Part shown: in pieces, positions 5,422 to 36,442 of the stretch | Layout: each line of letters opens with the position of its first letter | Numbering within the stretch: position 1 is the stretch's first letter | Source of the DNA: Promethearchaeati archaeon | GTDB taxonomy: Archaea > Asgardarchaeota > Heimdallarchaeia > Heimdallarchaeales > Heimdallarchaeaceae | Direction: 5' to 3' | Length of the DNA: 56,439 bases | Assembly (NCBI GenBank): GCA_013166775.1 | Contig: JABLTJ010000022.1 | Location: 1 to 56,439, forward strand | Position numbers and translations under genes: made by a program | Notes under the pieces: model-generated | Told to the model about the DNA's origin: nothing | What the model saw: the letters and a program-made list of their open reading frames with translations, nothing else | Databases searched by the model: none

Positions 5422-5558
5422 AGTTACAAAATACTTTCTAATACCGTAAATTGGGGCGTATCGTGACTTGGAATTTCATTAACTCTTTCTAAAGTGCCCG
5501 ACAACAACAACTTAAAGGTAATTAGTTTTTTATATCAATATTTTAGGATTGTTAGACA

Positions 5559-7049
5559 ATGAGTAGTGTAAAGAAGAAAATTTCGTTAGCACCAGAAGTA
5601 GTAAAACTCTATAAAGAAATTAGCTTAAAGGACGAAATATCGATAGATGAATTGAAGAACATCACAAAGCTAGATCATGGGAAACTAGAATATCTACTTG
5701 GAGCTCTAACTTCAAATAATCTTGTTGAAAGGATTATAGAAGTTAAGAAAAAAGTTCTCTTAACTGAAGCAGGTGAAATTGCAGCTGCAAATCAATTAGT
5801 AGAACGCAGGATTCTTTCTGCTTTAAAAGAAAATCAACCAATTAATTCTTCTGATCTTTCAAAAATATTAGATTGTGATAATAGGGAATTGAATGCTGGG
5901 ATTGGTTATCTGAAAAAACAGGGAATGATTGACATTGTTCAAGGACAGATATCTTTTTCTCAAAAAGAGGTAGAAGTTAGCACGGATATACAGGAAATTT
6001 TAGTTGAACTGTCCAAAGGAAACGAAGTAGATATTCAGAATTATGAAAAAACATTGCTTCAAAGAAGTTTAATAACAATTGAAGATGAGAAAAAAATAAT
6101 CGTTAAAACAATTGTCAAGTTTGAAGAAATGAAAAAGAATATAGTTGAAACATCTGATATCAGTAGATTAACTCCAGAAATGATTAGAAATGGCACCTGG
6201 AGAAAAACAAAATTGCGAGAATATAATCTAGATGTTTCTCCACCTGAATTCTTTACTGGCAGAAAACAACCTTATGCTAGATTTTTGGATGAAGTTAAAC
6301 AGAAATTAGTTGCCTATGGATTTCAAGAAATGCGAGGTCCTATTGTGGAGCTAGAATACTGGAATTTTGACGCTCTATTTCAGGCTCAAGATCATCCAGC
6401 GAGAGAATGGTCAGATGTATATAGAATTACTAATCCTAGTAAAGGAAAATTACCAAAAGAAAATCATGTTAAATTTGTTCAGAAGGCTCATGAAGACGGC
6501 TATGATACTGGAAGCAAAGGATGGAGATACAAGTGGGATCCGATGAAGAGTGCCCGTTTGGTTCTCAGAGCTCAAGGAACTTCTGTGAGTGCAAGAACTC
6601 TTGTAGATTTACCAATCCCTTCAAAGTATTTTAGTATCTCTCGATGCTTTAGACCTGATACAACAGATGCTACACATCTATCAGAATTTAACCAAGCTGA
6701 AGGAATTGTTTGTGATCCTTCTATTACATTTCGAGATTTATTAGGTATTCTCGAAACTTTTGCAATTGAAATATCTGAAGCACCAAATTATACATTCAAA
6801 CCAGATTACTACCCATTCACAGAACCATCAGTGGAATTAAGTGTTAAGGATCCTAAAATTGGACATATAGAATATGGTGGAGCTGGAATATTTCGACCTG
6901 AAGTAACAAGGCCATTTGGCATTGATGCTCCAGTAATTGCTTGGGGTTTAGGTGTGGACAGATTATTCATGGTCAAATATGGAATAACCGACATTAGGGA
7001 ACTTTATAGCTATAAGTTAGATTGGCTGCGATCAGCTAGGATGTCGTGA
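5559..7049 (+). CDS. pheS: Phenylalanine--tRNA ligase alpha subunit (archaeal/eukaryotic long type)
   Basis: WNFDALFQAQDHPAR, FRPDTTDATHLSEFNQAEG, YYPFTEPSVE, GAGIFRPEV, AWGLGVDRL. Confidence 0.98.
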   Translation: MSSVKKKISLAPEVVKLYKEISLKDEISIDELKNITKLDHGKLEYLLGALTSNNLVERIIEVKKKVLLTEAGEIAAANQLVERRILSALKENQPINSSDLSKILDCDNRELNAGIGYLKKQGMIDIVQGQISFSQKEVEVSTDIQEILVELSKGNEVDIQNYEKTLLQRSLITIEDEKKIIVKTIVKFEEMKKNIVETSDISRLTPEMIRNGTWRKTKLREYNLDVSPPEFFTGRKQPYARFLDEVKQKLVAYGFQEMRGPIVELEYWNFDALFQAQDHPAREWSDVYRITNPSKGKLPKENHVKFVQKAHEDGYDTGSKGWRYKWDPMKSARLVLRAQGTSVSARTLVDLPIPSKYFSISRCFRPDTTDATHLSEFNQAEGIVCDPSITFRDLLGILETFAIEISEAPNYTFKPDYYPFTEPSVELSVKDPKIGHIEYGGAGIFRPEVTRPFGIDAPVIAWGLGVDRLFMVKYGITDIRELYSYKLDWLRSARMS

Positions 7050-7058
7050 GGTGAAATA

Positions 7059-8753
7059 ATGGTATCTATAAAAGCAAGTTATACAAAAATTCAGGAATTC
7101 CTAGGAAAAGAATTATCACTGGAAGAACTAGAAGAGCTGCTATCATTCGCAAAAACAGAGATTGATGATTACGTCAAAGAGGAAGACATGCTTGTCCTTG
7201 ATATTAAGACGAGTAATCGTCCTGATCTTTGGTGTGCTGAAGGAATGATTAGAGAAATAAAAGGAATTTTGGATATGGAAAAAGGCATTCCTTCTTATGA
7301 AGTGAAAGAAAGTGGTTTCAGTGTCAAAGTGGATTCATCATTAGCTTCATCTCGACCTTATATCGCTTGTGCAATAGCAAAGAAAATTAATTTAGATGAT
7401 TTCTATATTAAGCAACTAATGCAGCATTCCGAGAAAATAGATAATTCTTATGGTAGAAAGAGAAAACGGTCATCTATTGGAATGTATAATCTTTCAATGA
7501 TTCAAAGCCCCGTACTTTATCAAACAGCTCAGAAATCTCATAAATTCACTCCTCTTGGGTATGAAAAAGAAATGACCTTAGATAAAATTCTTAATGAGCA
7601 TGAAAAAGGGCAGGAATTTGGTCAAATAGTCAAAGATTATGGTATCTATCCCATCTTATTGTCTGCAGATGGAATGACACTATCTTTACCTCCTGTGATT
7701 AACAGCAATGATGTAGGAAGAATTACTGAAGATACAACTGAATGTTTAATCGAAGTTACTGGCACCAATTTCGAGACAGTTAATGTAGTTCTGAATATCT
7801 TATGTCAAACAATGGCTGATCATGGAGCAGATATCTATAGTGTTGTTATCGAATATCCACCTGAAATTCATAAAGAGCAAGTTATTACTCCTATACTAGA
7901 ACTTGAAAGTATCATCATAGAACTAGACATAATTGAAAAGTATTTAGATGTAAAAATCAATTCCACAAAAGCAAAGGAACTAATGCAGAAAAGAAGATTT
8001 GAATGTGAGGAATTAGAAGGTAATAAAATCAAAGTAATGATTCCCCCCTATCGAAAAGATATACTACATTGGGTAGATATAGCAGAAGAGATAGTAATAG
8101 CGTTAGATTATAATAAAATAGGTCCAACAAAATGGAAAGTACTAACAACAGGAGGTCTCCTTCCAGAAACAGAAAGCGAAAATCTTGTACGAGAAATTTT
8201 AGTGGGTGCTTATGGCATCGAATTGGTTACAAATATACTTACAGATCCTAGTATTCTGACTAGCAATGTTAACCTCGACAAGCAAGAACTGATAAAAATT
8301 GAAAATCCAGTCAGTCAAACATATAGTGTTTTAAGAAATCAGCTCTTTCCCAATTTGGTAAATGTAATTTCAAAAAATACTCACGAATCCTATCCTCAGA
8401 TTATTTTTGAGGTTGGTGAAGTAGTAAGAATGGATAAGAATGATGTCTGGACTCAAACCAATGCTGCTTTTTGTATTGCAGATGCAGATGCTAGTTTTGA
8501 AGATGCTCATAAAAGACTTCATCATCTTATGAAACTGTTAAACACTGAATATAAGATTGAAAGCACAACTCACCCTTCCTTTACAGATGGACGATGTGGA
8601 ATAATAAGTATCAAAGATATCCAATGCGGAATTATTGGAGAAATTAATCCACTTATACTTGAGAAGAATCAAATTTGGGTACCTTTAGTTTGTTTTGAAG
8701 TAGAATTACCTAGCATTCCAACTCTTAACTGTAAAACAAAGAAGACTTACTAG
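7059..8753 (+). CDS. pheT: Phenylalanine--tRNA ligase beta subunit
   Basis: NRPDLWCAEG, SLPPVINS, YRKDILHWVDIAEE, IFEVGEV; directly downstream of pheS. Confidence 0.97.
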   Translation: MVSIKASYTKIQEFLGKELSLEELEELLSFAKTEIDDYVKEEDMLVLDIKTSNRPDLWCAEGMIREIKGILDMEKGIPSYEVKESGFSVKVDSSLASSRPYIACAIAKKINLDDFYIKQLMQHSEKIDNSYGRKRKRSSIGMYNLSMIQSPVLYQTAQKSHKFTPLGYEKEMTLDKILNEHEKGQEFGQIVKDYGIYPILLSADGMTLSLPPVINSNDVGRITEDTTECLIEVTGTNFETVNVVLNILCQTMADHGADIYSVVIEYPPEIHKEQVITPILELESIIIELDIIEKYLDVKINSTKAKELMQKRRFECEELEGNKIKVMIPPYRKDILHWVDIAEEIVIALDYNKIGPTKWKVLTTGGLLPETESENLVREILVGAYGIELVTNILTDPSILTSNVNLDKQELIKIENPVSQTYSVLRNQLFPNLVNVISKNTHESYPQIIFEVGEVVRMDKNDVWTQTNAAFCIADADASFEDAHKRLHHLMKLLNTEYKIESTTHPSFTDGRCGIISIKDIQCGIIGEINPLILEKNQIWVPLVCFEVELPSIPTLNCKTKKTY

Positions 8754-30021: not shown

Positions 30022-30345
30022 CTATTTGTGTTTATCGTTTATTGGAAATCTCGCTTTCATTATTTCAATCTCTTCCAACCAAACATTTTCCAAATCTATA
30101 TTTAGCAATATGCATAACTGCATAAAAAGAGAAAATGCTTGAGCAATTTCTCTTGAAAGATTTGCGATAGGAGGTTTTTCATGACCTTGTTTTTCAGTTT
30201 TGTATTTCGATAGAAAAAGGAGATATTTACCTATCTCTCCTAGTTCCTCAATTAAGTGTATGAAAACATCATTTGGAGAAAAGGATTGCCATCCTCTTTC
30301 ATCTAAAAATTTTCTAAATTCATCTATAATTTCATTTAATTCCAA
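30022..30345 (-). CDS. MazG-like nucleotide pyrophosphohydrolase
   Basis: ERGWQ, HLIEELGEI, EIAQ, NIDLE; all-alpha NTP-PPase pattern. Confidence 0.8.
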   Translation of the reverse strand: MELNEIIDEFRKFLDERGWQSFSPNDVFIHLIEELGEIGKYLLFLSKYKTEKQGHEKPPIANLSREIAQAFSLFMQLCILLNIDLENVWLEEIEIMKARFPINDKHK

Positions 30346-30359
30346 GTAAAACCCTCAAT

Positions 30360-32435
30360 TTATACTGCATATGATTTAAGATTTCTTTTCGATATTTTTG
30401 TTTTACACATAGGGCATTCGTTCTTTATCTTCATCCACTGTTCCATATGATCATCATGAGCAACATTGGAACAATTCGGACATTCTAGGATATTATCCCC
30501 TCTTTTAATTAAACCCTGACACACTGAACATTTTGAAGGAATTTCTTCGCAGTTATTGCATGGTTCATATGCCGATTTGATTAAATGCCCACAATTTAAA
30601 CAATGCATCTTTAATGATGGTAAAGTGAGTTGTCCTCTTTTTTCGAAGTATGTGTTTGTAAGAATCCCAGTGTAATACCCATGAGCAAGCAATTGACAGA
30701 TGATTCTAAAAATATCGTGCTCCATTAAAGAGAGATTAGAAGCAACAATATTGAGTCTGATTTTTTTCCTTCTTGATTTTTCTATTTCATTAACTATCCG
30801 GACATAATTTTCTCCTAAATCTTCCAATTCCTTATTTGGTAAGAATTTCTGATAAGATAAAACATTTAGAGAATTGCTTCTCAATTCCAGATTTACTAAA
30901 CCTGAACCTGTTAATTCATAAACAATATTTCTAGCTGCATTTATCGATTTACTCCAGTTTTTCTGAATACTACTTAATGGGACTTTCTTATTCGCAGTAA
31001 TATATCCAAATATTTCTTGATAATGAATGGGGAGGTCTTCTAATTGTGTGAGAGGAGGAAAAATAGGAATCTCATCTGGCTCTAATCGATTTCCCACAAT
31101 TGTACCTTTTATCAATCCTTTACCATAAAAACCATACAATCTCTCTTTAGCATAAAATTTGTCTACCCCTAGTGCTAATGCTATATCTCTAACATTGATT
31201 TGTTTTTTAGCAATAACCATTCCAAGTAGAATCTTTTCCCATCTATCTAGAGTTCCTTCTTGTGTTCTACTATATCTTCGAATGCTTTCAACATAAAGAG
31301 TATTTCCCTTAATTGTTCCAGAAATAAATCCTTCCAATAGAAGTGTAATTACTCCCTCTAGAATTTCACCAGTTGTTCTGTTCATAAGAGTTCCTAGTTT
31401 TTTAAGAGGAATTCTATCTTGGGTAGATAATAATCCAAACAAAGCTTCATAGTTGAAGAATGAAAGAGTAGCCATTTCCTCAATAGTTCGTTTGGGTTTT
31501 AATTCAGGTATAACGATTGGATTGATATAATTGGACTCTGTAAAAATTACTTGAAAAGTACCTCTCGCTGTTAGAAAAGCTAAAATTTTCAGCACTCCAA
31601 TTGGTTCCTTATCTACAAACTTAACTAATTCCTTGATTGAAACCCTTTTTCTTAGTATTGTGTATCCTGCAATATCCTTTTCAACACCTTGTAAAGAAGC
31701 TAATGGGAGAATTCTAGGTGAAATATGATATTTTTTCACATTAACAAAAATATTTGAAGAACCAACTAATTTTGATTCAACTTCGAACTGAGCTTCCAGT
31801 TTTCTATAAAGCATTAAATGAGAAAGTTTCGTAAATACTTGTTCTCTGGAAAACCCTGTGTGTTTTGCTACTATTTCTAATTTAGCATTTCTTAGCATCA
31901 TACAAACTCCTACGACAAAGGTATCATCTGATGAAATAGTCACTTTTTCAGGTGGTCTCCAAATGTAATTTGAAATGAACTCTTTGTTTTTTATAATGCC
32001 TATTATAAGTCCTCTATTGATGAAATATTTCAAATGATCCAATAGATTATCATATTTAATCTCTGCAATCTTAACCAGTTCTCTCAAACCTATTTTCTTC
32101 GAATATGCTAATAATCCCAAAATAGCTTTTCGATTTGAAGTTAAACGTCCAGGATTGATATTAGGAAACTTGTAGATAGATCCTACGACAAACCTATCTT
32201 TTCTGTAGTAACCTCTAATAGTTAGTGATTGTATGAGTAATTGAATGTATTCTTTTACTGCACCCAAATTCATTTCGTGCTTTTCAGAGAAATCTGTTAA
32301 AGTTATGCTACGATAGAGAAATAATTGAGTAAGAACTAGAGCTTGTTTGGTTTTCGACAATTTGGGCTCAGGAAGTTCTTGTTTTTTAAAATTGATGTTA
32401 TAAACATCTTCTCTCTCGTAACTCAGTTTAATCAT
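30360..32435 (-). CDS. Tandem winged-helix (PCI-like) repeat protein with zinc ribbon and C-terminal RING finger; putative E3 ligase
   Basis: About 8 repeats of pattern G.....K.I.L..L...........L..L...G.I.G.I; CLNC..CNNC; CSVC-x12-CPNC-x4-H-x2-H..W.....CPMC. Confidence 0.8.
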   Translation of the reverse strand: MIKLSYEREDVYNINFKKQELPEPKLSKTKQALVLTQLFLYRSITLTDFSEKHEMNLGAVKEYIQLLIQSLTIRGYYRKDRFVVGSIYKFPNINPGRLTSNRKAILGLLAYSKKIGLRELVKIAEIKYDNLLDHLKYFINRGLIIGIIKNKEFISNYIWRPPEKVTISSDDTFVVGVCMMLRNAKLEIVAKHTGFSREQVFTKLSHLMLYRKLEAQFEVESKLVGSSNIFVNVKKYHISPRILPLASLQGVEKDIAGYTILRKRVSIKELVKFVDKEPIGVLKILAFLTARGTFQVIFTESNYINPIVIPELKPKRTIEEMATLSFFNYEALFGLLSTQDRIPLKKLGTLMNRTTGEILEGVITLLLEGFISGTIKGNTLYVESIRRYSRTQEGTLDRWEKILLGMVIAKKQINVRDIALALGVDKFYAKERLYGFYGKGLIKGTIVGNRLEPDEIPIFPPLTQLEDLPIHYQEIFGYITANKKVPLSSIQKNWSKSINAARNIVYELTGSGLVNLELRSNSLNVLSYQKFLPNKELEDLGENYVRIVNEIEKSRRKKIRLNIVASNLSLMEHDIFRIICQLLAHGYYTGILTNTYFEKRGQLTLPSLKMHCLNCGHLIKSAYEPCNNCEEIPSKCSVCQGLIKRGDNILECPNCSNVAHDDHMEQWMKIKNECPMCKTKISKRNLKSYAV

Positions 32436-32536
32436 CCATAAAATGTTAGTTTTATATTATTAAACAAGATTTATTAACCTTCTCTTATTCAGCAGAGTTG
32501 TTATGTGATTCTTAATACAAGATTAATTAAACTAAT

Positions 32537-34579: not shown

Positions 34580-36442
34580 ATGAGACGCAAAAAATCACTA
34601 ACCCTACTTTTATTAACTTCAATATTAGTGAGTGTTGTATTTAGTGTTATAAATACAAAAAACGTTTTAGCAGAAAATGAAGCTAGACCAAGACTCGAAA
34701 GCATAATTGCAGAAGGTTTTGAAGGCTTTAATGGTCAGAATTATCCTAATGGAACTCTGATTACTGTCGAATATTCTGTTAAGCGTTATGTTGGTGTTGA
34801 TGGAGTTAAATTAGTTGGGGCTGGTTCCAATTTTACTCTAGATATAAACCTAGGATTGGAATTAAATTTCTCAAATTCGTTTGAGTTACGATCATACTAT
34901 ACTGGGACATTCAATCTAACAGAACATTCATACTTCAAAGCATATGGCTGGATTGGGGATGTTACAAATGGAACCTATGAAGAAGTTGATTATTTTGCTC
35001 ACTTAGGTCCTTGGCACTATCTTTTTGTCAACGAAAATTTAGCACCAGAATTTGATAAAATTCTAAATGCAACATCGACTGATGTATCTAAGGTATTTTA
35101 TTCTCCTGCTAATTATACAAATCATACAATTGTAATCCGTTACAAAGTTTATGGAGGAGGGGAAAATGAAAATATCACTCTAGCGACTTCAGTTTATCGT
35201 GATAAAATTGCAAATTCATCTATAACTGAATTTGATGCAGATGTATCTTTCATTAAAATGGATTGGGTGAATGAAACTCATGAAACATATGAGGTTTATA
35301 ACACAACAATACTATTCACAACGAGAACCTTCTACTTCAGTGCAAATAATTCAAATGGGTGGGATACCTGGAATAATGGTGTGATTACAGATAGATTAAA
35401 CATCTACAGGATAGATAATGGTTTTCATTTTGAATCCAAAACGGTATTAAATGAAAAACATACAGAAGTTAATCCAATATCGTTTAATATCACATCAATA
35501 AATGCTACCGAATACGAAACGTTTGGAATCAGTTATTATGTAGTTGAAAGTTCAGAAAACAGTACAGAAATAGTTCCATGGACGTTAGTAGAAGCATTAC
35601 TAAACACTACATATATTGATACTGATAGTGATGGATACAATAGTACAATCAGGAAATTTAATGCAACTATAGGTCCTTTCAATGTTGGTAATATAATCTA
35701 CTTTGAAGCATACAATATTTACAAAGGAGAACATTATAACGAAACTACAGGTAACCTTCACAGAATAGAGATTTACGATTCCACACCTGAGCTGTATCTT
35801 ACTCCTATAGATGGGATATACACAAATAATCACACTGTCACCTTCTTCTATGAGGTTGAATTAAATAGTGGAAATATTACTGAAGCAACTTTTGATTATG
35901 GTGATGGAACACCTTTAGATATTCTATCTCTTGAGAGTCATGATACGCTTGTTCACGATTATCCATTCGGTGTTGCAGCTTTCTATAACTACACTCTTTT
36001 TGTAAACAATTCTCTAGGTACATCAAATAATATTACTCACTTGATTTATTTGGACTTCCAAAATCCTCTTCTTGACATGACTTCAAATACAAATACTTCA
36101 CGAGACATAGTGGATGGTTTAGTTGAACTTCGCTTCGAGTATTCCGACGATTATACAGGAATAAAATTCGTACACATCGATTGGGGAGATGGCATTGTTC
36201 AAAATGTAACTGATGAGCATTATGCTTTGCATTACTACGTTGAAAGTGGTACTTATAATGTAACAATAACTGCTCAAGATCGTGCAGGAAATAATCAAAG
36301 TGTAATCTTAATCTACAATGTTGTACTGTCTACAGAGACACCAACAGAACCTACTCCTAATAGTTTTGTTTCAGTACTGATTACTCTAGTCGCAATGGGG
36401 ATAGTTATAAGTAGTAATCTGAAACTTAAAAAGAGAAAATAA
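34580..36442 (+). CDS. Secreted PKD-domain surface glycoprotein with C-terminal membrane anchor
   Basis: Signal peptide MRRKKSLTLLLL; FDYGDG and IDWGDG...HYYVESGTYNVTITA PKD motifs; T/P linker, TM helix and KLKKRK. Confidence 0.85.
   Translation: MRRKKSLTLLLLTSILVSVVFSVINTKNVLAENEARPRLESIIAEGFEGFNGQNYPNGTLITVEYSVKRYVGVDGVKLVGAGSNFTLDINLGLELNFSNSFELRSYYTGTFNLTEHSYFKAYGWIGDVTNGTYEEVDYFAHLGPWHYLFVNENLAPEFDKILNATSTDVSKVFYSPANYTNHTIVIRYKVYGGGENENITLATSVYRDKIANSSITEFDADVSFIKMDWVNETHETYEVYNTTILFTTRTFYFSANNSNGWDTWNNGVITDRLNIYRIDNGFHFESKTVLNEKHTEVNPISFNITSINATEYETFGISYYVVESSENSTEIVPWTLVEALLNTTYIDTDSDGYNSTIRKFNATIGPFNVGNIIYFEAYNIYKGEHYNETTGNLHRIEIYDSTPELYLTPIDGIYTNNHTVTFFYEVELNSGNITEATFDYGDGTPLDILSLESHDTLVHDYPFGVAAFYNYTLFVNNSLGTSNNITHLIYLDFQNPLLDMTSNTNTSRDIVDGLVELRFEYSDDYTGIKFVHIDWGDGIVQNVTDEHYALHYYVESGTYNVTITAQDRAGNNQSVILIYNVVLSTETPTEPTPNSFVSVLITLVAMGIVISSNLKLKKRK

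What the first reader, a model, noticed from the sequence alone, without database searches (positions are those of the whole stretch)
30360..32435. About eight tandem winged-helix repeats fused to a RING finger
Seen: roughly 8 repeats of ~70 aa (e.g. AILGLLAYSKKIGLRELVK...RGLIIGII; ALFGLLSTQDRIPLKKLG...EGFISGTI; ILLGMVIAKKQINVRDIA...KGLIKGTI), then a zinc ribbon and a RING variant CxxC...CPNC..H..H..W..CPMC. Known: G.I.G.I-type winged helices occur in PCI domains, and tandem WH arrays occur in UFL1/DDRGK1 and ESCRT-II; RINGs recruit E2~ubiquitin. Inference: a single-chain scaffold E3 ligase, a possible analogue of WH-based eukaryotic E3 scaffolds. It is strongly basic, so it may bind nucleic acid or ribosomes.
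Basis: partly seen in the sequence, partly recalled or inferred. Interest (0 to 1): 0.72.

Follow-up and report, generated by a model that had tools for sequence, protein, structure and literature searches.

The report
Eight-winged-helix RING ubiquitin ligase, Heimdallarchaeales
A single-copy gene kept by nearly all Heimdall-group Asgard archaea encodes eight winged-helix domains followed by a zinc ribbon and an intact RING finger, so it is most likely a large, untested ubiquitin ligase whose scaffold is related to that of the eukaryotic UFM1 ligase UFL1/DDRGK1.

Summary
ORF 30360-32435 (-) encodes a 691-aa protein. AlphaFold (pLDDT 88, pTM 0.69) models it as exactly eight winged helices, a 4-Cys zinc ribbon and a C2C2H2C2 RING. 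All 12 zinc ligands are invariant in 32 homologues, and the E2-contact residues are kept: V/I638, W667, P675 and the linchpin K/R678.

The genome has ubiquitin, four UBC-type E2 hits and E1s. The same ribbon-RING cassette occurs on two RING proteins inside its E2-RING-RING-Ub-E1 operon.

The winged helices are PCI-type (Pfam PCI in 24/32 members). Foldseek's best PDB hit for two independent models is human UFL1-DDRGK1. Profile-profile comparison links the array to the Asgard UFL1/DDRGK1-like family (98.6%, E 6e-16), but not to Vps25 (0.7%) and only weakly to Vps22 (47%).

The gene is single-copy and found in 45 of 46 other Heimdallarchaeales genomes. It has no conserved ubiquitin-operon context, and its substrate is unknown.

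Best reading: a RING E3 on a UFL1-like winged-helix scaffold (about 0.6). Activity, target and nucleic-acid binding are untested.

The scan found this family before in other genomes, with similar verdicts. I found no paper describing it.

The parts
30360..32435 (-). Whole ORF, 691 aa plus stop: eight winged helices, a zinc ribbon and a RING
   Evidence: It is the only ORF in the genome that matches the winged-helix-array HMM (E 4e-235).
32166..32363 (-). WH1 (residues 25-90)
   Evidence: DSSP of the model. It is the weakest repeat by profile: 18% (E 2.8e-4) to WH2.
31956..32147 (-). WH2 (residues 97-160), the most basic repeat region and the profile 'hub' of the repeats
   Evidence: Net charge is +9 over residues 71-140.
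31722..31940 (-). WH3 (residues 166-238), with a long wing of MarR/TFE-alpha type
   Evidence: VIA Z 8.5-8.9 to MarR-type regulators and to TFE-alpha 6pln_A.
31512..31697 (-). WH4 (residues 247-308)
   Evidence: VIA Z 8.6 to the DDRGK1 winged helix (8oj0_C, 18% identity), Z 8.9 to a CSN PCI winged helix, and matches to BirA.
31035..31496 (-). Most conserved core (residues 314-467): WH5, WH6 and their linkers, with motifs TIEE..LSFFNYEAL.G, YSR.QEG.L.RWEK and F.GKGLIKG....E.P.FPPL
   Evidence: Invariant columns of alignment A1. Partly retained in the wider alignment A2.
31275..31460 (-). WH5 (residues 326-387)
31071..31253 (-). WH6 (residues 395-455)
30846..31037 (-). WH7 (residues 467-530), the best PCI-type match
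   Evidence: VIA Z 9.0-9.4, rmsd 1.6-2.4 over 62-65 residues, to PCI winged helices of the proteasome lid, CSN and eIF3.
30633..30821 (-). WH8 (residues 539-601)
   Evidence: VIA Z 8.5, 24% identity, to the DDRGK1 winged helix in 8c0d_B.
30546..30611 (-). Four-Cys zinc ribbon (residues 609-630; C612, C615, C626, C629)
   Evidence: All four Cys are invariant in 32/32 homologues. Weak Pfam DZR match.
30396..30536 (-). RING variant C2-C2-H2-C2 (residues 634-680; C636, C639, C652, C655, H660, H663, C674, C677), with V638, W667, P675 and K678
   Evidence: Pfam zf-RING_2 E 9e-6, 26.3 bits. Profile against Arkadia/RNF165 E 8e-6. VIA Z 9.5 to 3lrq and Z 8.1 to RNF4 in 4ap4. Column counts.
32436..32536 (-). 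101-bp A/T-rich spacer after glnA, with a TATA-like AATAATATAAAA about 14-27 nt before the ATG; a possible own promoter (inference only)
   Evidence: Read directly.

Best explanation
The gene encodes a RING-type E3 ubiquitin ligase of an undescribed architecture. A rigid chain of eight PCI-type winged helices, homologous at the repeat level to the scaffold of the Asgard and eukaryotic UFL1/DDRGK1 proteins, acts as the docking platform for a large conserved partner or substrate. That partner is unknown; a nucleic-acid-containing particle such as chromatin or the ribosome is a guess. The C-terminal zinc-ribbon-plus-RING cassette recruits and activates a ubiquitin-charged UBC-type E2 encoded elsewhere in the genome. 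Shown in silico: the domain architecture, zinc-ligand and E2-contact conservation, the presence of E1/E2/Ub, the repeat-level relationship to UFL1-like proteins, and single-copy near-universal presence in Heimdallarchaeales. Inferred: ligase activity, which E2 is used, and the target.
For: Architecture: (two independent models). RING: all eight ligands plus the four ribbon Cys are invariant in 32/32 homologues. Position 638 is V or I in 32/32, 667 is W in 30 and Y in 2, P675 is in 32/32, and 678 is K in 21 and R in 9. These positions align with the E2-binding Ile/Val, Trp and Pro and the linchpin Arg of Arkadia/RNF165 (E 8e-6). Structural match to RNF4 in its E2~Ub complex (4ap4, Z 8.1) and to 3lrq (Z 9.5). 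Pfam zf-RING_2 is found in 28/32 members. Ubiquitin system in the genome: four UQ_con hits, two ubiquitin hits, five ThiF/E1 hits. An HMM of this protein's ribbon-RING cassette hits the two RING proteins inside the C102 E2-RING-RING-Ub-E1 operon (E 8e-13 and 1e-7). Archaeal operon RING proteins of this kind were active E3s in vitro (PMC5654768; bioRxiv 10.1101/2023.07.25.550441). Scaffold: Foldseek's top PDB hit is UFL1-DDRGK1 8b9x for both models (E 2.4e-7; 3.7e-5). The nearest ESM Atlas cluster is the Asgard PCI+E3_UFM1_ligase+DDRGK family. hhalign of A2 against that family gives 98.6%, E 5.8e-16 over 294 columns, against 0.7% for Vps25 and 46.8% for Vps22. Selection: full-length single-copy matches in families f1 30/30, f2 1/1, f3 3/3 and f4 11/12, with near-constant length.
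Against: No activity data exist. P0001 itself scores 26.3 bits on zf-RING_2, just under the 27.3 cut-off. The ligand 3/4 pair is CxxC with an Asn where RING-H2 has His, so the RING is a variant. The gene is not in a ubiquitin operon. Its neighbours are glnA, a DCTPP1-like gene and an ABC ATPase in its own genus, and pdxS/pdxT in distant lineages, so context gives no support. The same ribbon-RING layout in GATOR2 and IFT-A is largely an assembly element (my own knowledge). No rigid whole-chain match to any solved structure was found: TM 0.09-0.13, and rmsd about 14 A to UFL1-DDRGK1.
Confidence: 0.6

Rival explanations
1. It is a non-catalytic assembly scaffold. The PCI-type winged helices and the ribbon-RING tail serve only to build a multi-protein complex, as PCI winged helices do in the lid, CSN and eIF3 and as the C-terminal RINGs do in GATOR2 and IFT-A. 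No ubiquitin is transferred.
For: Pfam PCI is the commonest winged-helix assignment (24/32 members, best E 2.7e-14). WH7 matches lid/CSN/eIF3 winged helices at Z 9.0-9.4. The tail matches MIOS (E 0.0067) and WDR19/IFT144 (8bbg_A, 83 columns, 29% identity, rmsd 3.2). Atlas rows for WDR24, WDR19 and WDR59.
Against: The E2-contact Trp, Pro, Val/Ile and linchpin Lys/Arg are conserved down to about 20% identity, which pure assembly does not require. There is no helical-repeat part of a PCI domain and no propeller or solenoid. The same cassette sits in the genome's ubiquitin operon.
Confidence: 0.15
2. It is a nucleic-acid-binding protein: a chromatin or DNA organiser, a transcription factor or an RNA/ribosome binder. 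The winged helices contact DNA or RNA and the zinc modules are structural or nucleic-acid-binding.
For: pI 9.45, in the top 8.6% of the genome's ORFs of 200 aa or more. A Hodarchaeales relative (P0071) carries the homologous array (query 99-604, E 2e-44) fused to an Mrr-type restriction nuclease, and P0066 carries a serine recombinase in front. Foldseek hits to TFIIIC tauB, Rpc82, SelB and FokI. WH3 resembles MarR/TFE-alpha. Some sources name homologues 'DNA-binding transcriptional regulator' or 'TFIIE alpha'.
Against: The basic charge is not conserved across the family: P0048 has pI 5.6, P0067 6.1 and P0050 6.3. The best winged-helix class is PCI/DDRGK1, which mainly mediates protein contacts. 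This reading does not explain the conserved E2-contact residues. It is compatible with the best explanation if nucleic acid is merely the docking site.
Confidence: 0.15
3. It is a UFL1-like E3 for a UFM1-like or other non-ubiquitin modifier. The winged-helix array, not the RING, positions a divergent E2, as in eukaryotic UFL1-DDRGK1.
For: Repeat-level homology to the Asgard PF09743-positive family. UFL1-DDRGK1 is the top solved match. Papers place the origin of UFL1/DDRGK1 in Asgard archaea (PMC10183829) and report Ufm1 homologues in nine Asgard clades (PMC12962969).
Against: No Pfam Ufm1, UFC1 or E3_UFM1_ligase match in this genome at E <= 0.1, although the genome is only 88.7% complete. Only 2/32 family members touch PF09743, at best E 1.5e-4. 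The genome has a separate, closer UFL1/DDRGK1-like protein of 252 aa on contig C52. A conserved canonical RING points to UBC-type E2s.
Confidence: 0.1

Closest known systems
Catalytic RING-H2 E3 domains (Pfam zf-RING_2 PF13639; Arkadia/RNF111, ARK2C/RNF165, RNF38, RNF4) and the small RING E3s of archaeal ubiquitin operons
   Same: Cross-brace binuclear finger of the same length. It has the hydrophobic residue after Cys1, the Trp, the Cys-Pro-x-Cys and the Lys/Arg linchpin. The profile E-value to Arkadia/RNF165 is 8e-6, and VIA gives Z 8.1-9.5 to RNF4 and 3lrq. The same cassette is found on the RING proteins of the genome's own E2-Ub-E1 operon.
   Different: Ligands 3 and 4 are Cys-x2-Cys with Asn at the usual His position, and ligand 6 is His, giving C2C2H2C2. 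The finger is always preceded by a 4-Cys zinc ribbon. It is attached to a 600-residue winged-helix array instead of being a small protein.
UFL1-DDRGK1 (UFM1 E3 scaffold; Pfam PF09743/PF09756; PDB 8b9x, 8c0d, 8ohd, 8qfc) and the Asgard UFL1/DDRGK1-like family (asCOG cog.003822, about 790 aa)
   Same: A tandem array of PCI-like winged helices used as an E3 scaffold. It is the best Foldseek PDB hit for two models. WH8 and WH4 match the DDRGK1 winged helix at Z 8.5-8.6 with 18-24% identity. hhalign to the Asgard family gives 98.6%, E 5.8e-16 over five consecutive winged helices.
   Different: Here there are eight winged helices, not five or six. There is a C-terminal RING, whereas UFL1 has none. 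The chain has no Pfam PF09743 match itself, and the alignment works in several registers, so no one-to-one domain orthology can be set. There is no rigid superposition (rmsd about 14 A). No UFM1 or UFC1 was detected in the genome. The Loki-type family has N-terminal Cys/His fingers and a Vps28-like C-terminus instead (described in the supplement of PMC10936438).
PCI-domain subunits of the proteasome lid, COP9 signalosome and eIF3 (Pfam PF01399)
   Same: The single winged helices are of the PCI type: 24/32 members hit PF01399, and WH7 matches at Z 9.0-9.4.
   Different: There is no N-terminal helical-repeat half of the PCI domain. Eight winged helices lie in one chain rather than one per subunit. 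P0001 itself scores only 12.6 bits (E 0.16) on PF01399.
C-terminal zinc-ribbon-plus-RING tails of GATOR2/SEACAT (MIOS, WDR24, WDR59) and IFT-A (WDR19/IFT144, WDR35)
   Same: The same two-module layout, ribbon then RING. MIOS E 0.0067. 8bbg_A matches over 83 columns with 29% identity and rmsd 3.2. Atlas neighbours also include these families.
   Different: Those tails follow a beta-propeller plus alpha-solenoid and act mainly in complex assembly (my own knowledge). Here the tail follows winged helices.
Nse1 of the SMC5/6 complex (WH-WH-variant RING, a KITE protein)
   Same: Tandem winged helices directly followed by a variant RING. Foldseek hits 7dg2_A (E 1.3e-2, and 2.4e-3 with the second model) and 5hvq_C.
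   Different: The matches are weak and there is no Pfam SMC_Nse1 hit. Nse1 has two winged helices, not eight. No kleisin or MAGE partner was looked for.

Membership tests
RING-type E3 ligase (zf-RING_2 / RING-H2) | Eight Zn ligands in cross-brace order | tested here: met
   C636, C639, C652, C655, H660, H663, C674 and C677 are invariant in 32/32 homologues. The spacing is C-x2-C-x12-C-x2-C-x4-H-x2-H-x10-C-x2-C. It is a variant: CxxC replaces CxH at ligands 3/4.
RING-type E3 ligase (zf-RING_2 / RING-H2) | Match to the family profile above the curated threshold | tested here: inconclusive
   P0001 scores 26.3 bits against a cut-off of 27.3 (E 9e-6). 28/32 homologues hit at E <= 0.01. The profile against PDB gives Arkadia/RNF165 at E 8e-6.
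RING-type E3 ligase (zf-RING_2 / RING-H2) | E2-binding and E2~Ub-activating residues (hydrophobic after Cys1, Trp, Pro after Cys7, linchpin Arg/Lys after Cys8) | tested here: met
   V/I638 in 32/32, W667 in 30/32 (Y in 2), P675 in 32/32, K/R678 in 30/32. They align to the Arkadia/RNF165 residues.
RING-type E3 ligase (zf-RING_2 / RING-H2) | RING fold | tested here: met
   VIA Z 9.5 (rmsd 2.5, 65 aligned) to 3lrq_B. Z 8.1 to RNF4 in 4ap4_A. Z 8.1-8.2 to U-boxes.
RING-type E3 ligase (zf-RING_2 / RING-H2) | Cognate E1, E2 and ubiquitin in the same genome | tested here: met
   Four UQ_con hits, two ubiquitin hits and five ThiF hits, with operons on contigs C27 and C102.
RING-type E3 ligase (zf-RING_2 / RING-H2) | E2-dependent ubiquitin transfer | not testable with these tools
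   This needs a biochemical assay.
UFL1 (E3 UFM1-protein ligase 1, PF09743) | Match to PF09743 above threshold | tested here: not met
   P0001 has no hit at E <= 1. Only 2/32 family members hit at E <= 0.01, best E 1.5e-4. An HMM of the Asgard UFL1-like family does not find P0001 at E < 1e-3.
UFL1 (E3 UFM1-protein ligase 1, PF09743) | Tandem PCI-like winged-helix scaffold related to that of UFL1/DDRGK1 | tested here: met
   hhalign of A2 against the Asgard PF09743-positive family gives 98.6%, E 5.8e-16, against 0.7% for Vps25 and 46.8% for Vps22. Foldseek's top hit is 8b9x.
UFL1 (E3 UFM1-protein ligase 1, PF09743) | Works with UFM1, UFC1 and UBA5 and has no RING | tested here: not met
   A conserved RING is present. 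There are no Pfam Ufm1 or UFC1 matches in the genome at E <= 0.1, but the genome is only 88.7% complete and divergent Asgard Ufm1 could be missed.
PCI-domain proteins (PF01399) | Helical-repeat segment followed by one winged helix, matching PF01399 | tested here: not met
   The winged helices are PCI-like in 24/32 members. However, P0001 scores only 12.6 bits against a cut-off of 22, and the model shows only winged helices with no helical-repeat half.
ESCRT-II (Vps22/Vps25/Vps36) | Sequence-profile relationship to the EAP30 or Vps25 winged-helix pairs | tested here: not met
   hhalign of A2 against Heimdallarchaeales Vps25 gives 0.7%, and against Vps22 46.8% (E 2e-4, 86 columns). The genome has its own Vps22 and Vps25.
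Nse1 / KITE | WH-WH-variant RING with a match to Nse1 | tested here: inconclusive
   Only weak Foldseek hits: 7dg2_A at E 1.3e-2 and 2.4e-3, and 5hvq_C at 4.5e-3. No Pfam SMC_Nse1 hit appears among the listed families.
GATOR2 / IFT-A type proteins | Beta-propeller plus alpha-solenoid before the ribbon-RING tail | tested here: not met
   Only the tail resembles them. Residues 1-600 are winged helices.

The most novel reading that the evidence does not exclude
This family is a RING-bearing sister of the UFL1/DDRGK1 lineage. On this reading the PCI-type winged-helix scaffold that eukaryotes use in the RING-less UFM1 ligase first served as the substrate platform of ordinary ubiquitin RING ligases in Asgard archaea, and UFL1 arose by losing the fingers. 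The Heimdallarchaeales protein would then be a housekeeping E3 docking on a large conserved particle such as the ribosome, as UFL1-DDRGK1 does on the 60S subunit.
Probability: 0.15. Interest if true: 0.8.

Novelty: new variant of a known kind. Interest (0 to 1): 0.6.

Why it matters
Asgard archaea have a eukaryote-like ubiquitin system, but apart from small operon-encoded RING proteins their E3 ligases and substrates are essentially unknown. This is a large E3 candidate that is single-copy, strongly conserved and present almost throughout an order. Its substrate platform is related to that of UFL1/DDRGK1, proteins whose pre-eukaryotic function is an open question (PMC10183829). It gives a concrete, expressible protein with which to ask what Heimdall-group archaea ubiquitylate. 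It also lets one test whether winged-helix scaffold E3s predate the UFM1 system.

Tried and rejected
- **Self-BLAST:** no internal repeats at E <= 10. The repeats are visible only by fold and by profile.
- **NCBIfam:** nothing meaningful.
- **Rfam and tRNA scans of the window:** nothing.
- **ESM Atlas search by language-model features (residues 1-605):** only generic wHTH regulators at scores <= 0.84.
- **Exhaustive VIA search of 48,161 PDB representatives:** only single-domain winged-helix and RING matches, and no whole-chain counterpart.
- **Gene context:** glnA, this gene, a 107-aa DCTPP1-like gene and an ABC ATPase keep that order in all 13 loci of the same genus that I checked. The order is lost in distant homologues, which sit after pdxS/pdxT. 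I therefore treat it as inherited synteny, not functional linkage.
- **ESCRT-II analogy:** rejected by the hhalign control.
- **PCI protein proper, Nse1, and GATOR2/IFT-A membership:** rejected or left inconclusive (see the membership tests).
- **Pfam E3_UFM1_ligase, Ufm1 and UFC1 in the genome:** no matches at E <= 0.1. A family HMM did find a separate 252-aa UFL1/DDRGK1-like gene that the Pfam pass missed.
- **Literature:** searches for Asgard + RING + winged helix/wHTH + ubiquitin found no description of this architecture. Liu et al. 2021 (asCOGs) is not in the searchable library, so a catalogue entry cannot be excluded.
Full report
**Observation.** The window is AT-rich (about 33% G+C) and carries archaeal genes: TFB, SepF, alanyl-tRNA synthetase and pyruvoyl arginine decarboxylase. 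Homologues of the protein are labelled Candidatus Heimdallarchaeaceae or Heimdallarchaeota. An AlphaFold2 model built on 31 homologues is confident (mean pLDDT 88.2, pTM 0.69). It shows eight consecutive winged helices with the H-b-H-H-b-b order, then a short 4-Cys zinc ribbon and a RING. A homologue only 20% identical (P0063, 703 aa) was modelled on its own alignment and gives the same eight winged helices plus ribbon plus RING (pLDDT 88.5, pTM 0.74). The architecture is therefore a family property.

The repeats are too diverged for BLAST. Profiles cut from the family alignment do recognise each other: WH2-WH4 92%, WH2-WH5 83%, WH2-WH6 77%, WH5-WH7 72%, WH4-WH7 70%, WH3-WH4 64% and WH2-WH8 62%. 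WH1 is weakest, at 18% to WH2.

**The zinc tail.** All twelve Cys/His are invariant in 32 homologues that go down to 18% identity. The pattern is C-x2-C-x10-C-x2-C (ribbon), then C-x2-C-x12-C-x2-C-x4-H-x2-H-x10-C-x2-C.
- Pfam zf-RING_2 matches at E 9e-6, 26.3 bits, just under the 27.3 cut-off, and is found in 28/32 members.
- The family profile finds the catalytic RING-H2 domains of Arkadia and RNF165/ARK2C in the PDB at E about 1e-5.
- In that alignment the Trp (W667), the Cys-Pro-x-Cys and the basic residue after the last Cys (K678) fall on the Arkadia/RNF165 residues. From established RING biochemistry (my own knowledge), these contact the E2 and act as the linchpin for E2~Ub.
- Across the family, position 638 is always V or I, 667 is W (30) or Y (2), P675 is invariant, and 678 is K (21) or R (9).
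- Comparison with a paralogous RING protein of the same genome shows how this RING is a variant. The usual Cys-x-His pair (ligands 3/4) is replaced by Cys652-x2-Cys655, with Asn at the old His position.
- Structurally the tail matches 3lrq (Z 9.5), RNF4 in its UbcH5a~Ub complex (Z 8.1) and U-boxes.

**The ubiquitin system.** The genome (3.85 Mb, 115 contigs, 88.7% complete) has four UBC-type E2 matches, two ubiquitin matches and five ThiF/E1 matches. They are arranged in at least two clusters: C27 next to Vps22, and C102.
- About 20 ORFs carry the same ribbon-RING cassette.
- Two of them lie inside the C102 cluster E2 - ORF - RING - ORF - RING - Ub - E1.
- Operon RING proteins of this kind were shown to be active E3s for Caldiarchaeum (PMC5654768) and for a Helarchaeial cascade (bioRxiv 10.1101/2023.07.25.550441).

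**The winged-helix array.** Domain by domain, the best structural matches are as follows:
- WH7: PCI winged helices of the proteasome lid, CSN and eIF3 (Z 9.0-9.4).
- WH8: the DDRGK1 winged helix (Z 8.5, 24% identity). WH4: Z 8.6.
- WH3: ordinary MarR/BirA/TFE-type winged helices.

Among all Pfam families, PCI is the commonest winged-helix assignment over the 32 members (24/32, best E 2.7e-14). DDRGK hits 4 members and E3_UFM1_ligase hits 2.

At the whole-chain level:
- Foldseek's best PDB hit is the human UFL1-DDRGK1 chimera 8b9x (E 2.4e-7), ahead of TFIIIC tauB, UFL1 on the 60S subunit, SelB, Rpc82, Nse1 and Vps22.
- The independent second model again puts 8b9x first (E 3.7e-5).
- TM-scores are low (0.09-0.25) and rmsd is about 14 A, so the arrays share units and order, not a rigid shape.
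- The nearest ESM Atlas cluster is an Asgard family of 788-aa proteins carrying PCI, E3_UFM1_ligase and DDRGK.

I retrieved that family from genomes with Pfam PF09743. About 790-aa proteins are found in 117/134 genomes of one large family (f20), with E down to 8e-20. Pfam confirms DDRGK + E3_UFM1_ligase + PCI x3 + a Vps28-like C-terminus. [quoted passage not shown]

Profile-profile comparison of the broadened alignment A2 with an alignment of 13 such proteins gives 98.6% probability, E 5.8e-16, over 294 columns: five consecutive winged helices, in several registers. The same test against Heimdallarchaeales Vps25 gives 0.7%, and against Vps22 46.8%. The similarity is thus specific to the UFL1/DDRGK1-type array and does not extend to ESCRT-II.

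The relationship is at the level of repeat units:
- An HMM of the UFL1-like family does not find this protein by sequence search.
- That HMM does find a separate 252-aa UFL1/DDRGK1-like protein in the same genome (C52:17287-18045).
- This protein is therefore not the UFL1 orthologue.

**Distribution and context.** The family profile finds a full-length, single match in 30/30 other genomes of the same family (f1), and in 1/1, 3/3 and 11/12 genomes of the three other families of the order. It also finds one in two genomes of a distant family whose NCBI label is Hodarchaeota. Elsewhere in the phylum only ribbon-RING tails match. In the window's genome it is the only ORF matching the array HMM. 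Length is almost constant at 680-703 aa. The Loki-type 790-aa UFL1-like protein is absent from these families (f2-f4 0/16; f1 hits are only the small 252-aa protein), so the two large proteins have complementary ranges.

Context gives no functional clue. The order glnA, this gene, a 107-aa DCTPP1-like gene and an ABC ATPase is conserved within the genus, while pdxS/pdxT precede the gene in distant lineages. A 101-bp AT-rich spacer with a TATA-like element precedes the ATG.

**Mechanism.** The most likely reading (about 0.6) is a RING E3. The tail binds and activates a ubiquitin-loaded UBC E2, and the eight-winged-helix chain holds the substrate or a large partner. The most conserved part is WH5-WH6 with its linkers (residues about 314-467), a candidate binding site.

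What it binds is unknown. The protein is basic (pI 9.45; genome median 5.85), and all Heimdallarchaeaceae members are basic. Some distant homologues are acidic. One Hodarchaeales relative fuses the homologous array to an Mrr nuclease, and another has a serine recombinase in front. That hints at DNA, whereas the UFL1 analogy hints at the ribosome. Neither is shown.

The rivals are a non-catalytic PCI/GATOR2-like assembly scaffold (0.15), a nucleic-acid-binding protein whose fingers are structural (0.15), and a UFL1-like E3 for a non-ubiquitin modifier (0.10).

**Novelty.** All the domains are known, and NCBI already names some members 'RING finger domain-containing protein' or 'E3 ubiquitin protein ligase'. 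I found no paper describing the eight-winged-helix plus ribbon plus RING architecture, its distribution or its relationship to UFL1-like proteins. I rate it a new variant of a known kind.

Earlier agents of this scan reached the same architecture and similar readings on homologues in other genomes. They also reported UFL1-like scaffolds with RING-like fingers inside ubiquitin operons of Hodarchaeales. Those are unchecked notes, and I did not test the Hodarchaeales claim.

Noticed in passing
window 30022-30345 (-): A 107-aa gene starts 14 bp after the stop of the RING gene, with a GAGGG just upstream of its TTG start. It is a MazG-type all-alpha pyrophosphatase resembling dCTP pyrophosphatase 1 (PDB 6sqw, E 3e-4). 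It follows the RING gene in all 13 same-genus loci checked, but not in distant lineages.
   Followed up: partly
window 34580-36442 (+); L008:10177-12021: A 620-aa secreted PKD-domain protein near the RING gene is orthologous (28% identity over the full length, E 1e-34) to the gene directly downstream of a distant homologue of the RING protein. This may be a remnant of ancestral adjacency.
   Followed up: partly
L087:5288-6046 (= G000:C52:17287-18045) and L087:6167-6604: The genome has a separate 252-aa UFL1/DDRGK1-like three-winged-helix protein. Relatives of it hit Pfam E3_UFM1_ligase at E 5e-9; the Pfam pass on this genome missed it and a family HMM finds it at E 9e-80. The next gene is an OST3/OST6-family protein (E 1.4e-8). 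That pairing is suggestive, given that eukaryotic UFL1-DDRGK1 works at the ER translocon.
   Followed up: partly
L084 (= G000:C102:20500-28000): A ubiquitin operon reading E2 (671-1201), a 235-aa ORF, a 380-aa RING protein, a 195-aa ORF, a 197-aa RING protein, a ubiquitin-like gene (5512-5868) and E1 (6012-7289). Both RING proteins carry the same ribbon-RING cassette as the finding.
   Followed up: partly
L085 (= G000:C1:180982-183957): A 991-aa Dna2-like nuclease-helicase (Dna2, PD-(D/E)XK, AAA_11/AAA_12) ends in a RING finger (zf-RING_2, E 2.4e-6). It is a possible DNA-repair enzyme fused to an E3 module.
   Followed up: no
P0071, P0066 (relatives from other metagenomes): Relatives of the winged-helix array occur with other effector ends. 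A Hodarchaeales protein of 942 aa has the array plus an Mrr-type restriction nuclease. An 892-aa protein has an N-terminal serine recombinase, the array and the RING.
   Followed up: partly
P0095, P0106, P0117 (hits): The ribbon-RING cassette also ends large proteins with extracellular-type repeats (TSP3, FG-GAP, Big, CARDB). This suggests receptor-like membrane proteins with a cytoplasmic E3 tail.
   Followed up: no
L029:433-2799 (P0206) and L030-L050: The Loki-type UFL1-like family of about 790 aa (asCOG cog.003822) begins with a Cys/His cluster whose spacing looks like an AN1-type finger. The spacing was read from the translation and Pfam did not confirm it. The family ends in a Vps28-like domain, and it is absent from the families that have the eight-winged-helix RING protein.
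   Followed up: partly
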